64,000 nucleotides of DNA from Eledone cirrhosa. Taxonomy: Eukaryota. This document shows positions 33,787 through 44,348 of the stretch, piece by piece (the first letter of the stretch is position 1; each line of letters starts with the position of its first letter). The position numbers and the translations under genes are program-made. The stretch is from positions 10,540,001 to 10,604,000 of the forward strand of contig OZ024761.1 in assembly GCA_964016885.1 (NCBI GenBank), read 5' to 3'. The notes beneath the pieces were generated by a model. It searched no databases and was not told where the DNA came from. It saw only the letters and a list, made by a program, of their open reading frames with translations.

Positions 33787-34774
33787 GACTAGAACTGTTT
33801 CATTCAAAGGAAGTCATCAGGCTTTCCTAATGATTTCCTTCGAATTAAACAGTTCTAGTCCTGAAGAAGCCATTTATATATTAAATTTGTTGTATACACT
33901 CTACTAATGTATTGAGTATCTTACTTACTGTGGTCATCCCCGATTGAACCTGGGACTCACACACACAAATATGTGTATATGTAGGGGAGGGGGGTCATCA
34001 CCTTTTAATGTCCATTTTCCACACTAGAAAGAGTTAGTTGAATTGTCTTGTTGCGAGACAAGTCAGATCAGGTGACAGTGACTTGCTCATACAGAACTGT
34101 TTCTGGCTTGGTTTCTATGGTTGGATTCCCTTCCTAATGCCAACATTTACAGCGTGGACTGGGTGCTTTTTGTCGTTTACCAACATGACTTCCTTTCAGG
34201 TGTATATGTGTTTCATATATATATATTGTGAAAGTATGATTTAATGGTGTTAGGTTTATGATCATATCGTCATGGGTTCAATTCCTGGATTGAGCAGCAT
34301 ATTGTGTTCTTGAGCAAGTCACTTCATTTAATGTTGCTTTTCATGATAGGACTAGGCGACCCCTATCATTAAAACACTTAAGAAACCTCTTATGAGATGT
34401 AACCTCATTGGCGACCATCTATACTTGCATAGGAAATTTAAAAAAAAATGAAATTTTCAGCTCACACCTATGCAGGTTTGACTGACCTCATACAAAGTTG
34501 TATCTCATTAGACATTTCTTGGGGGGTTTAATGATAAGCAATGTGAAATGAAGCATTTAGCTTGAGAACAACATACTGCCCAGTTCAGGAATGGAACCTA
34601 TGACTTCATGATCATGAGTCTAACAGGTTAACTTAAATAAAAGTGTGAGCTTTAAATTTCATTTCATTTCATTTTTTTTTTTTTTTTTTCATTTCTTCAC
34701 AAATTAAACTATGACCCCTGTACTAACAAAAAGTGAGACAAACCAAAAATGACCCCTTTGTTTTCTTCTTCCAG

Positions 34775-35117
34775 AACCAAACTATAATGACCCTGTACTA
34801 GCAAAGACCGTGAGAAACCGAAATGGTGTGCCCATCTTCTTGGGTAGCATTCGAGAAGATGAACGAGAAGTGAAATTGGATCCACCGCTTAGCGCCACTG
34901 ATCCAGATAAAGGTAAAGAGGGAAAGATTTGTGGCTATGGAATCATCGGACAACATTTACATGACGTTCCTTTTGAAATTGTCCTTCTCAACAACGAGAC
35001 TGGTGAAGCTAAGATCATCGTGAAAACTGGTGAAACCTTGAATTATGAGAAACGTGAGAAATACAAGTTCACCATTGTTGCTTATGACTGTGGTGAGATA
35101 CACCATTACTCAAACAA
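34775..35117 (+). CDS. CLSTN: Calsyntenin exon A, cadherin repeat 1
   Basis: Acceptor ttcttcttccag, donor AA|gtaagt. Encodes PNYNDPVLAK...LDPPLSATDPD...ICGY...VPFE...LNYEKREKYKFTIVAYDCG. Phases 1 to 2. Confidence 0.92.
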
Positions 35118-35269
35118 GTAAGTTGTCATCTCTCTTTCTAAATGTCTGTTTTACGTGTCTATCAAAGCTTGTCACCTGCTGGTTAACCCATTAGCATTTA
35201 ACCCTTTAGCATTTACATTATTCTATATTTACTATTGTATTTTCACAATAAAGGCTTTATCTTAGGTAA

Positions 35270-35595
35270 TTATCAGATCCATTATCATAACTTGCATATA
35301 AACTCCTGTCTTCCCCCTCTCATCAACAGATCCATTGTAATAACTTATGTATAAACTCCTGTCTTCTCTCTCTCACCAACAGATCCATTGTAGTAACTTG
35401 TGTATTATGTCTTCTCCCTCTCACCAAGAATCCATTGTAATAACTTCTGTATTATGTCTTCTTCCTCTCACCAACAGATCCATTGTAATAACTTGTGTAT
35501 AAACTCCTGTCTTCTCTCTCTTACCAACAGATCAATTGTAATAACTTGTGTATTATCTCTTCTCTCTCTCTTACCAACAGATCTATTGTTATAGT
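35270..35595 (+). repeat. Degenerate array of about 50-bp units (about 7) spanning the exon B acceptor
   Basis: Recurring tcttctctctcYcaccaacag|atcYattgt. Confidence 0.88.
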
Positions 35596-35789
35596 CCACG
35601 TGGAGGATGTTGATGAATACCCCCCAATGTTCAATGAAGACAGTTATGAAGTCGAGGTGGAAGAGGGCCATGTCTTTGGTTCCATTATTCAGCTGACTGC
35701 TTCCGACAAGGACAAGTCCAACAACTTTTCTAAGATTTGTAGATATGTTATTTTGGACAACGATGTTCCATTTGAGATCAGTAATGATG
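35581..35789 (+). CDS. CLSTN: Calsyntenin exon B, cadherin 1/2 junction
   Basis: Acceptor ttaccaacag, donor G|gtaggt. Encodes SIVIVHVEDVDEYPPMF...LTASDKD...ICRYVILDNDVPFEISND. Confidence 0.93.
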
Positions 35790-42415: not shown

Positions 42416-43049
42416 TTTAATTACAGGTGCTAATGGCAATAGTGTTGATATAATATGTACCTATGTTTAATTACAGGTGCTAATGGCGATAGTGTTGATA
42501 TAGTGTATACCTATATTTAATTACAGGTGCTAATGGCGATAGTGTTGATATAGTGTATACCTATATTTAATTACAGGTGCTAATGGCGATAGTGTTGATA
42601 TAGTGTATACCTATGATTAATTACAGGTGCTAATGGCAATAGTGTTGATATAGTGTATACCTATGTTTAATTACAGGTGCTAATGGCAATAGTGTTGATA
42701 TAATATGTACCTATGTTTAATTACAGGTGCTAATGGCGATAGTGTTGATATAATATGTACCTATGTTTAATTACAGGTGCTAATGGCAATAGTGTTGATA
42801 TAATATGTACCTATGTTTAATTACAGGTGCTAATGGCGATAGTGTTGATATAATATGTACCTATGTTTAATTACAGGTGCTAATGGCGATAGTGTTGATA
42901 TAATATGTACCTATGTTTAATTACAGGTGCTAATGGCAATAGTGTTGATATAATGTATACCTATGTTTAATTACAGGTGCTAATGGCGATAGTGTTGATA
43001 TAATATGTACCTATGTTTAATTACAGGTGCTAATGGCGATAGTGTTGAT
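42416..43049 (+). repeat. 50-bp tandem array with 13 copies of the exon E splice acceptor
   Basis: The unit ttacaggtgctaatggcRatagtgttgatataRtRtRtacctatRtttaa starts every 50 nt from 42421 to 43021. Confidence 0.97.
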
Positions 43050-43308
43050 CTGCTGCCATCTCCAAGTGTGGCTACATGGACGTCAAGCTTACCGACAGAC
43101 GACGGCAACGAAAGCGATCAAATCTTTGCATTTGACGGCCAGACTAACGCAGTCGAAGTACCAGATGGCCATCTCAACCATTCTCTTACCAGTCACTTTA
43201 CCATTTCTACCTGGATGAAGCGAGAACACAATTCCAAGAGGTTCGGTGGACAATCTTCACCTAACAAGGCACGAAAAGAACACATTCTCTGTATGTCTGA
43301 TGGAGAAC
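43027..43308 (+). CDS. CLSTN: Calsyntenin exon E, start of LNS/laminin-G domain
   Basis: Acceptor ttacag (last unit of a 50-bp array), donor C|gtaagt, 282 nt. Encodes GANGDSVDLLPSP...IFAFDG...FTISTWMK...KEHILCMSDGE. Confidence 0.94.
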
Positions 43309-43833
43309 GTAAGTGGCACTTTTTTATTTTGAGGGGTTTAGGGTTTCTGTTTGGTGGTGGTTTGGGGAACATCATCATCATCGTTTAACGTCCATCTTCC
43401 ACGCTTGCATGGGTTTGGTTTTAGGGATTAGGGTTTATTTTTGGATTTGGGGGATTTTTTTTTTTTTTTAGGGGTTAAAGGGTTTTTGCCAGTGGTTTGA
43501 GGATTGGGGAACTTTTTCGGATATTTTAGGATTTGGGGATATCTTTCATCTATTAATTTTTTTTTGTAGGATTCACAGAATCAATACCTTTCCAAACACA
43601 CTGCATTCTTTATCTTTTGTTTCCTCTCTCTCTCTCTCTCTCTCAACTTTGCCTGTCATCCTTCTAGGGTTTCATCCTTATGAGGTCAATAAATAAAGTA
43701 CCAATAATGCACTGGGGTCGATTTAACCAACTTCCCTTCCCCCAAAATTGTTGGCCTTTTGCCTACATCAGAAACCATTATTATTTGTTTTTTCTCTTCT
43801 TCCTCCTTATCATCATCATCATCATCATCACAG

Positions 43834-44015
43834 ATTTGAATAGACATCATTACGGACTGTTTGTTCACGGAGATAAATTGGTGTTTCTGCTGAGACGGGA
43901 AGCTGCCGAAGGGGAGAACATGGAAGCTTTCAGCCCTGCTGAGTGGAGGTGGCAATTAGCTCAGATTAATGACGGAGAATGGCATCACTATGCATTGAGT
44001 GTTGACTACCCAGAG
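43834..44015 (+). CDS. CLSTN: Calsyntenin exon F (LNS)
   Basis: Acceptor atcacag, donor GAG|gtaagg. Encodes HLNRHHYGLFVHGDKLVFLLRRE...PAEWRWQL...WHHYALSVDYPE. Confidence 0.95.
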
Positions 44016-44348
44016 GTAAGGTTTCAATTCATGGTGTTGGTGAAGGGCTCCATTGACTGTTGACCACCCAGAACTAGGGTTTTAACCCCCCATGGTGTCG
44101 AAGTGCAGTATTGGGTACTGACTACCCAGAAATAGGGTTTTAACCCCTCATAGTGTCGATGAAGGGCAGTATTGGGTATTGACTAACCAGAGCTAAGGTT
44201 TTAACCCCTGATGGTGTCAGTGAAGGGCACCATATGTAGTGCTGACTACTCAGAGCTAGGGTTTGAAGCCCTCATGGTGTTGGTGTCAATGACGAATAGT
44301 ATTAAATATTGACTAGCCAGAAATAAGGTTTAACTTTCTGACGGTGTC
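43992..44348 (+). repeat. Degenerate array of about 60-bp units (6) spanning the exon F donor
   Basis: Recurring tgactacccagaR-NNaRggttt...atggtgt. Confidence 0.85.

What the first reader, a model, noticed from the sequence alone, without database searches (positions are those of the whole stretch)
34700..44348. Recurrent pattern: tandem duplications centred on exon-intron junctions at 4 of the first 6 exons
Seen: unrelated repeats overlap or copy the start of exon A (34705-34755), the exon B acceptor (about 7 units), the exon E acceptor (13 units) and the exon F donor (6 units). All have units of about 50-60 bp. Junctions are a tiny fraction of the window, so the clustering looks non-random. 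Inference: either a mutational mechanism tied to junctions (R-loops, repair at GC/AT boundaries, RNA-templated repair) or tolerated raw material for intron sliding or gain. Tandem duplication across AG|GT is an established intron-gain model. I do not know of this being described as a lineage-wide pattern, but I cannot search.
Basis: partly seen in the sequence, partly recalled or inferred. Interest (0 to 1): 0.75.

Follow-up and report, generated by a model that had tools for sequence, protein, structure and literature searches.

The report
Splice-junction "mirage" minisatellites in octopus calsyntenin
Four of the 29 exon-intron borders of an octopus calsyntenin gene in this window have been copied head-to-tail into the neighbouring intron, and the two checked against RNA are still spliced normally; this repeat type is already known from lancelets as a "mirage" and is here most likely a tolerated by-product of frequent local DNA duplication.

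Summary
The repeats are real, but the clustering is weaker than reported. The gene is an intact octopus calsyntenin-1: 15 exons in the window, 907/965 aa identical to O. sinensis, no gaps. Arrays span the acceptors of exons B (7 unit starts) and E (13) and the donor of F (6); exon A has one diverged 75-bp copy. That is 4 of 29 junctions, and exon A is not the first exon. A birth-site null gives P 0.07-0.09 for all unit sizes, or about 0.002 for a post hoc 40-80 bp class. No genome was held for a genome-wide test. A spliced contig uses only the exon-proximal E acceptor and F donor; a close relative shares the F array but apparently not the E array. Every B or E decoy acceptor gives an early stop. 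There is no sign of intron gain, sliding or a spliced template. This matches amphioxus "mirages" and the human F7 VNTR. The scan already noted this kind in annelids, sea urchins and other animals; I found no cephalopod report.

The parts
34775..63838 (+). Calsyntenin-1 gene, 15 coding exons in the window (A-O): 34775-35117, 35581-35789, 37998-38144, 39228-39419, 43027-43308, 43834-44015, 44759-44888, 45353-45507, 47915-48066, 49402-49709, 50226-50390, 50635-50780, 51335-51467, 62381-62559, 63662-63838. The first coding exon lies outside the window.
   Evidence: tblastn with O. sinensis calsyntenin-1; all 15 acceptors AG and 14 donors GT, no internal stop, 907/965 aa identical with no gaps; N-terminal exon not found
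34680..34829 (+). Two-copy, about 75-bp diverged duplication across the exon A acceptor. The upstream copy (about 34680-34754) holds about 20 nt of intron end plus about 50 nt of exon start and has lost the AG.
   Evidence: score 45, 0 of 2000 shuffles; alignment
35274..35593 (+). Exon B acceptor minisatellite: 7 unit starts 47-53 bp apart, ending 13 nt inside exon B. Five of 6 decoys keep CAG, four of them behind a full pyrimidine tract.
42416..43049 (+). Exon E acceptor minisatellite: 50-bp unit = 11 nt intron end + 23 nt exon start + 16 nt filler; 12 full units plus the true junction. All 12 decoys keep CAG|GT. Six distinct unit types, with shared variants in neighbouring units.
   Evidence: spliced contig starts at the last acceptor and the relative's contig matches only from 43016
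43993..44345 (+). Exon F donor minisatellite: true junction plus 5 decoys, 58-67 bp, each about 23 nt of exon end + intron start. All 5 decoys have lost the G of GT (CT three times, AT twice).
   Evidence: array also in the related organism, true donor used in the spliced contig
44655..44775 (+). Weak candidate: AT-rich repeat next to the exon G acceptor that echoes the first 17 nt or so of the exon. Not counted among the four.
   Evidence: 17 of 24 matches; 7 of 300 shuffles
62344..62415 (+). Weak candidate: the last 37 nt of the intron before exon N resemble the start of exon N (22 of 30 aligned letters). Not counted among the four.
   Evidence: 2 of 300 shuffles; alignment

Best explanation
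These are four unrelated local tandem duplications that each include a splice junction of an intact calsyntenin gene ('mirage' minisatellites), most likely made by ordinary DNA-level duplication and then amplified by slippage or unequal exchange, and likely tolerated because splicing uses the copy next to the full exon. Step 1 (inferred): a short stretch across a junction is duplicated, either as a plain tandem copy (A, F) or as a short duplication flanking sequence that the upstream intron does not hold (E: 34 nt around a 16-nt filler; B: about 16 nt around about 37 nt). Step 2 (inferred from variant clustering): the unit is amplified and partly homogenised. Step 3 (shown for E and F, inferred for A and B): the mRNA is spliced at the exon-proximal copy, so the array stays intronic. 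Step 4 (inferred): duplications that break the exon are purged, transcripts that use a decoy carry early stops and would be degraded, and decoy signals decay where they matter. This explains why arrays extend only into introns. Their number is roughly what this window's high rate of local duplication would give, with perhaps a modest excess.
For: Units are unrelated to each other and have no dispersed copy in the window. They hold unspliced junction sequence, not exon-exon sequence. The window has 54 loci of local duplication outside exons, and the coverage null is not exceeded. In run X4 one 3464-nt contig, depth 168, lies only on exons E-H with 0 differences; its depth alone accounts for the bins at the E acceptor and F donor, and the decoy bins 42900-42990 and 44083-44264 are empty. 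All 5 B and 12 E decoys that keep CAG give stops by aa 121-134 and aa 310 of 965. No gap against the O. sinensis protein. Arrays differ in age: F is shared with organism B, with a 59-nt skip and a 9-nt insertion, while B's 638-nt contig matches only from 43016, exactly where the filler ends. E variants sit in adjacent units. The same anatomy and normal splicing are reported for amphioxus mirages (PMC3087553 section 16; PMC3902484 passage) and human F7 intron 7 (PMC1557585 abstract and Discussion).
Against: The birth-site null, which suits terminal overlaps better than the coverage null, gives an excess: 3 of 30 TRF loci, P 0.009-0.034; 4 of 27 loci with 40-80 bp units, P about 0.002. Purifying selection should lower the expected number further. 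All four lie in the first 12 of 29 junctions (P 0.02, post hoc). Twelve intact E decoys persist at 96% identity, so decoy decay is not general. Logan contigs drop rare forms, and NMD would hide decoy use. Run X4 is not on record as RNA; I infer that from the spliced contig. Organism B shows an unexplained depth of 6.26 on 42900-42990, so absence of an E-like array there is not certain.
Confidence: 0.65

Rival explanations
1. Junction-biased birth: breaks or polymerase stalls occur preferentially at splice junctions of transcribed genes and are repaired with a short duplication, often with filler, seeding arrays more often than at random intronic sites.
For: 4 of 27 loci with 40-80 bp units touch a junction against about 0.5 expected. 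B and E both start with the junction motif and enclose sequence absent from the upstream flank (688 and 731 of 1000 shuffles score as well). The relative's contig leaves the window sequence exactly at the filler edge. PMC3087553 calls the generating mechanism unclear.
Against: One selected gene. All-size null P 0.07-0.09. 25 of 29 junctions have no clear copy. No GC-step difference and no spliced template. An array anchored in an exon is shielded from deletion on one side, which could give the same excess without biased mutation (inference).
Confidence: 0.2
2. Functional decoys: the stacked acceptors tune calsyntenin output through unproductive splicing and NMD, or the CAG|GT units at E act as recursive-splicing ratchet points.
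For: 12 of 12 E decoys and 5 of 6 B decoys keep CAG. Each E unit reads CAG|GT. A zero-length recursive step would leave the mRNA unchanged, so cannot exclude it.
Against: The regenerated donor would be GTGCTA, while 13 of 14 real donors in this gene start GTA and one is GTGAGA. The intron is only 3.6 kb. No contig of run X4 lies on the decoys covered, and the E array appears absent next to the exon in a relative with about 2-3% exon divergence.
Confidence: 0.07
3. Intermediates of intron gain or sliding by the AG|GT duplication model.
For: The model is established for exonic duplications (abstracts of PMC3265369 and PMC2891723), and PMC3087553 proposes a mirage version of it.
Against: The duplications straddle existing junctions rather than exonic proto-splice sites. 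No protein gap against O. sinensis. No gap in the window protein at the B or E junction against 13 lophotrochozoan homologues, apart from a 1-aa insertion near B in one chiton (two O. bimaculoides records lack the B region). The mRNA contig matches the true exon E copy with 0 differences, and decoy use gives stops.
Confidence: 0.04
4. Assembly artefact.
For: The E array is 96% identical between units, so its exact copy number could be wrong. The run that holds most of the stretch has holes over exon F and its array.
Against: A, B and F units are too diverged (F alignment 72% mean column identity; B 82%) to be collapse or expansion errors. E has 6 distinct unit types. The F array is seen in an independent organism and study.
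Confidence: 0.02

Closest known systems
Amphioxus 'mirage' minisatellites (Adh3, globins BflGb6 and BflGb9, troponin C, PGBD5). Read: PMC3087553 passages and section 16; PMC3902484 one passage. The original Adh3 paper was not held and is known only through these citations.
   Same: Tandem units spanning an exon-intron boundary; both acceptors and donors affected; unit size within the reported 10-160 bp; many but not all units keep AG or GT; normal splicing; length differences between lineages; several cases in one gene.
   Different: Found in a cephalopod mollusc. The E unit contains a 16-nt filler absent from the upstream intron. All five F decoys lack GT. Within-species and somatic instability were not tested.
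Human F7 intron 7 37-bp VNTR (PMC1557585; abstract and Discussion read)
   Same: First unit spans the exon-intron junction and only the exon-proximal site is used.
   Different: F7 pseudo-donors are intact and competent; the octopus donor decoys have lost GT, and the intact decoys here are acceptors.
Intron gain by tandem or segmental duplication of an AG|GT proto-splice site (PMC3265369, PMC2891723; abstracts only; PMC4974935 as search listing)
   Same: Tandem duplication of a stretch holding AG|GT (E array).
   Different: Here the duplicated site is an existing acceptor; no new intron or moved junction appears in the mRNA or protein.

Membership tests
Mirage minisatellite (features from PMC3087553 section 16 and PMC3902484) | Tandem unit spans an exon-intron boundary | tested here: met
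   B 22/24, E 24/24, F 21/24 matches across the junction; A by gapped alignment
Mirage minisatellite | Unit derives from the local junction, not from a dispersed element | tested here: met
   No dispersed blastn hit in the 64-kb window for B, E, F; not testable genome-wide
Mirage minisatellite | Unit length in the reported range (10-160 bp) | tested here: met
   47-53, 50, 58-67 and about 75 bp
Mirage minisatellite | Many but not all units keep AG/GT signals | tested here: met
   B 5 of 6 keep CAG, E 12 of 12, F 0 of 5 keep GT, A 0 of 1
Mirage minisatellite | Regular splicing is not disturbed | tested here: met
Mirage minisatellite | Length instability between haplotypes | tested here: inconclusive
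   Between organisms: F array differs by a 59-nt skip and E appears absent next to the exon. Within species: the RAD run X6 has next to no depth over the arrays
Mirage minisatellite | Concerted evolution inside the cluster with diverged edge units | tested here: met
   E variants shared by adjacent units 2-5; outermost B and F units are among the most diverged
Mirage minisatellite | Somatic instability | not testable with these tools
   Needs several tissues of one animal
Intron gain by AG|GT duplication | Duplicated proto-splice site lies inside an exon and the region between copies is spliced as a new intron | tested here: not met
   Duplications straddle existing junctions; mRNA contig and protein are collinear
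Intron gain or sliding | Intron position differs from orthologues | not testable with these tools
   No eukaryotic genomic loci could be fetched; proteins show no gap at B or E
Recursive splice site | AG immediately followed by GT | tested here: met
   12 of 12 E decoys read CAG|GT
Recursive splice site | Regenerated donor matches the consensus (recalled criterion) | tested here: not met
   GTGCTA against GTA.. in 13 of 14 and GTGAGA in 1 of 14 real donors
Recursive splice site | Intermediate junction or lariat reads in nascent RNA | not testable with these tools
   Only assembled contigs were available for run X4

The most novel reading that the evidence does not exclude
Splice junctions of transcribed genes are preferred birth sites for minisatellites across marine invertebrates, through a break repaired as a short duplication around filler sequence. 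At exon E this would have moved the working acceptor 600 bp downstream onto a new filler-derived intron end, leaving the ancestral branch point and pyrimidine tract stranded ahead of 12 decoys, with no change to the mRNA. Mirages would then be a general route of silent splice-signal turnover, not a lancelet curiosity.
Probability: 0.17. Interest if true: 0.7.

Novelty: new member of a known kind. Interest (0 to 1): 0.3.

Why it matters
As it stands it extends a little-studied repeat type to cephalopods and gives a natural test of 3' splice-site choice: 13 near-identical acceptors in a row, with only the last seen in the mRNA. If junction-biased birth held genome-wide, it would link splicing to local mutation and explain why such arrays recur in unrelated animals. 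One gene cannot show that.

Tried and rejected
Genome-wide test: no genome is held for this window, so all statistics come from one 64-kb window. Run search: no holder is on record as RNA; that blank was not used as evidence. The RAD run X6 had next to no depth over the arrays. Spliced-mRNA template: rejected for B, E, F; not testable for A because the upstream exon is outside the window. GC/AT boundary: rejected. Source of the E filler: no match better than 13 of 16 elsewhere in the window on either strand. Transposon origin of the units: no dispersed copies in the window. Signal-peptide exon inside the window: not found, best scores 32-33 are noise. Loss of GT in all five F decoys as proof of selection: not accepted, because at least one other column also differs from the true copy in all five units and the units are not independent. 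G and N acceptor echoes: left uncounted, since 7 of 300 and 2 of 300 shuffles among 29 tests is marginal. The original Adh3 mirage paper was not held. Literature searches (open-access library only) listed no cephalopod mirage report and no genome-wide enrichment study; most subscription papers are not covered. No supplementary files were opened; Additional files 4-7 of PMC3087553 may bear on unit anatomy.
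Full report
What the locus is. The stretch lies in a calsyntenin-1 gene on the + strand. Exon A's translation hits Octopus sinensis calsyntenin-1 at 91%, and tblastn with that protein maps 15 exons between 34775 and 63838. All 15 acceptors are AG and all 14 donors GT; the joined frame has no internal stop and matches 907 of 965 residues with no gap. 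It is 93% identical to an O. bimaculoides record over 726 residues, so the source is likely another octopus (inference). The first 33 residues are not encoded in the window, so exon A is at least the second coding exon. The window holds 29 junctions.

The observation. Three arrays clearly span junctions: B acceptor (35274-35593, 7 unit starts, 47-53 bp, 82%), E acceptor (42416-43049, 13 starts, 50 bp, 96%) and F donor (about 43993-44345, 6 units, 58-67 bp). Exon A has one diverged upstream copy with a period of about 75 bp (0 of 2000 shuffles). A scan of all 29 junctions finds no other clear case; the G and N acceptors give weak echoes that I did not count. The true count is therefore 4 of 29 junctions, all among the first 12.

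Is it more than chance? It depends on the null. On that test the finding fails: 10.5-17% of complex non-exonic positions have a neighbouring copy at 21 of 24 matches, predicting 3.0-4.9 of 29 junctions against 3 seen; a gapped version predicts 4.5 against 3. That null is generous, because a junction can only lie in an array's terminal unit. Counting arrays instead, 3 of 30 TRF loci straddle a junction against 0.43-0.52 expected over the window, or 0.59-0.70 over the gene span (P 0.009-0.034). With a more sensitive catalogue of 54 loci, 4 are at junctions against 1.5-1.7 expected (P 0.07-0.09); for the 27 loci with 40-80 bp units, 0.44-0.54 are expected (P 0.001-0.002). That class was chosen after the fact, the catalogue includes some low-complexity loci, and the window was singled out for this pattern. 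A modest excess is possible but not shown. No genome was held for the decisive test.

Anatomy. The units are unrelated, and B, E and F have no dispersed copies in the window. They contain the unspliced junction, not the neighbouring exon's end, so a spliced mRNA was not the template. The GC step at these junctions is not special. A and F read as plain tandem copies. B and E begin with the junction motif and enclose sequence that the upstream intron does not hold: at E, 34 nt of junction (11 intron + 23 exon) around a 16-nt filler with no source in the window better than 13 of 16. Splice signals: A's decoy has lost AG, all five F decoys have lost the G of GT, 5 of 6 B decoys and all 12 E decoys keep CAG. 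Use of any of these 17 would give a stop by residue 121-134 (B) or 310 (E) of 965.

Evidence from public runs. I laid four runs on 42900-45600. In run X4 (same species label, not on record as RNA) one 3464-nt contig of depth 168 lies on exons E, F, G and H only, with no differing letter. It begins at the last E acceptor and joins F to G at the true GT..AG. Its depth alone explains the bins at both junctions, and the bins over the E decoys covered (42900-42990) and the F decoys (44083-44264) are zero. Contigs drop rare forms and NMD would remove decoy products, so this shows the dominant mRNA only; A and B were outside the laid stretch. Organism B (run X5, another study; 7 differences in 315 nt around exon E) has a contig running from exon F into the F array, with a 9-nt insertion and a 59-nt skip, so that array predates the split and has changed since. 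This suggests the E array is young or has collapsed in B, and that the filler is not ancestral intron. Against this, X5 has an unexplained depth of 6.26 on 42900-42990, and the upstream letters themselves were not shown.

How it most likely works. Local duplication is frequent in this window (54 loci outside exons). Now and then a duplicated unit includes a junction. If the copy next to the full exon still splices, the event is near neutral, and slippage or unequal exchange amplifies the unit into the intron; the clustering of variants in adjacent E units fits this. Shown: the arrays, their composition, normal splicing at E and F, stops from decoy use, and the difference between species. Inferred: the duplication and amplification mechanisms, exon definition as the reason the last acceptor wins, NMD of decoy products, and neutrality. 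The main rival is a mutational bias toward junctions (about 0.2). One-sided protection from deletion could mimic it. A recursive-splicing role for the CAG|GT units is not excluded by the mRNA, but the regenerated donor GTGCTA is unlike all 14 real donors.

What is known. Tandem repeats spanning exon-intron boundaries were named mirages in amphioxus Adh3 and are reported in globins, troponin C and PGBD5, with normal splicing and an unclear origin; the globin paper already proposes them as a route to intron gain (PMC3087553, passages and section 16 read; PMC3902484, one passage). Human F7 intron 7 is a donor-side case in which only the exon-proximal site is used (PMC1557585, abstract and Discussion). 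The octopus arrays meet every mirage feature I could test; length instability within the species was inconclusive. They do not meet the definition of intron gain by AG|GT duplication (abstracts of PMC3265369 and PMC2891723): the protein shows no gap at B or E against the homologues that cover them, apart from a 1-aa insertion near B in one chiton (14 of 121 proteins aligned). Seven literature searches listed no cephalopod case and no genome-wide enrichment study, within an open-access library only. Earlier notes of this scan describe the same kind in annelids, sea urchins, other invertebrates and a camelid, none naming octopus; they are unchecked and were not used as support. I had reached the mirage reading from the papers before opening them.

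Verdict. Real repeats, a known kind, probably a new lineage for it; enrichment unproven; no evidence of intron gain, sliding or function. Interest 0.3.

Noticed in passing
window 59005-62073 (- strand): Open 1022-aa frame of a LINE-type retrotransposon (endonuclease, RVT_1 and PHD domains) in the 10.9-kb intron before exon N. It sits between two halves of one 32/64-bp minisatellite (58389-58694 and 62033-62304), which it appears to have split.
   Followed up: partly
window 40554-42355: 1.8-kb array of a 19-bp unit (95.7 copies, 91%) ending 60 bp upstream of the exon E array; no dispersed copy in the window.
   Followed up: no
window 1570-2298 and 32643-33036: Two arrays of the same 48-bp unit on opposite strands, 31 kb apart, with related single pieces near 8500, 10000 and 24500: a minisatellite likely seeded more than once from a dispersed repeat.
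   Followed up: partly
window 22866-23257: Locally unique 80-bp array (4.9 copies, 86%) far from any mapped exon: a non-junction counterpart of the mirage arrays.
   Followed up: partly
window 1-34774: No match to the calsyntenin signal-peptide exon in 34.7 kb upstream of exon A, so the preceding intron is longer than that. The spliced contig leaves about 512 nt upstream of exon A, if it includes exons A-D. I did not search this stretch for other genes.
   Followed up: partly
window 42427-43049: Each E unit carries CTAAT and TTGAT in its exon-derived part, branch-point-like motifs (consensus recalled) that lie about 45 and 30 nt before the next AG. The copied exon piece may supply the branch point for the acceptor now in use.
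   Followed up: no
window 49605-49655: Coding GAT/GAA-rich repeat in exon J gives an acidic Asp/Glu run of the same overall length as in O. sinensis but with a different order.
   Followed up: no
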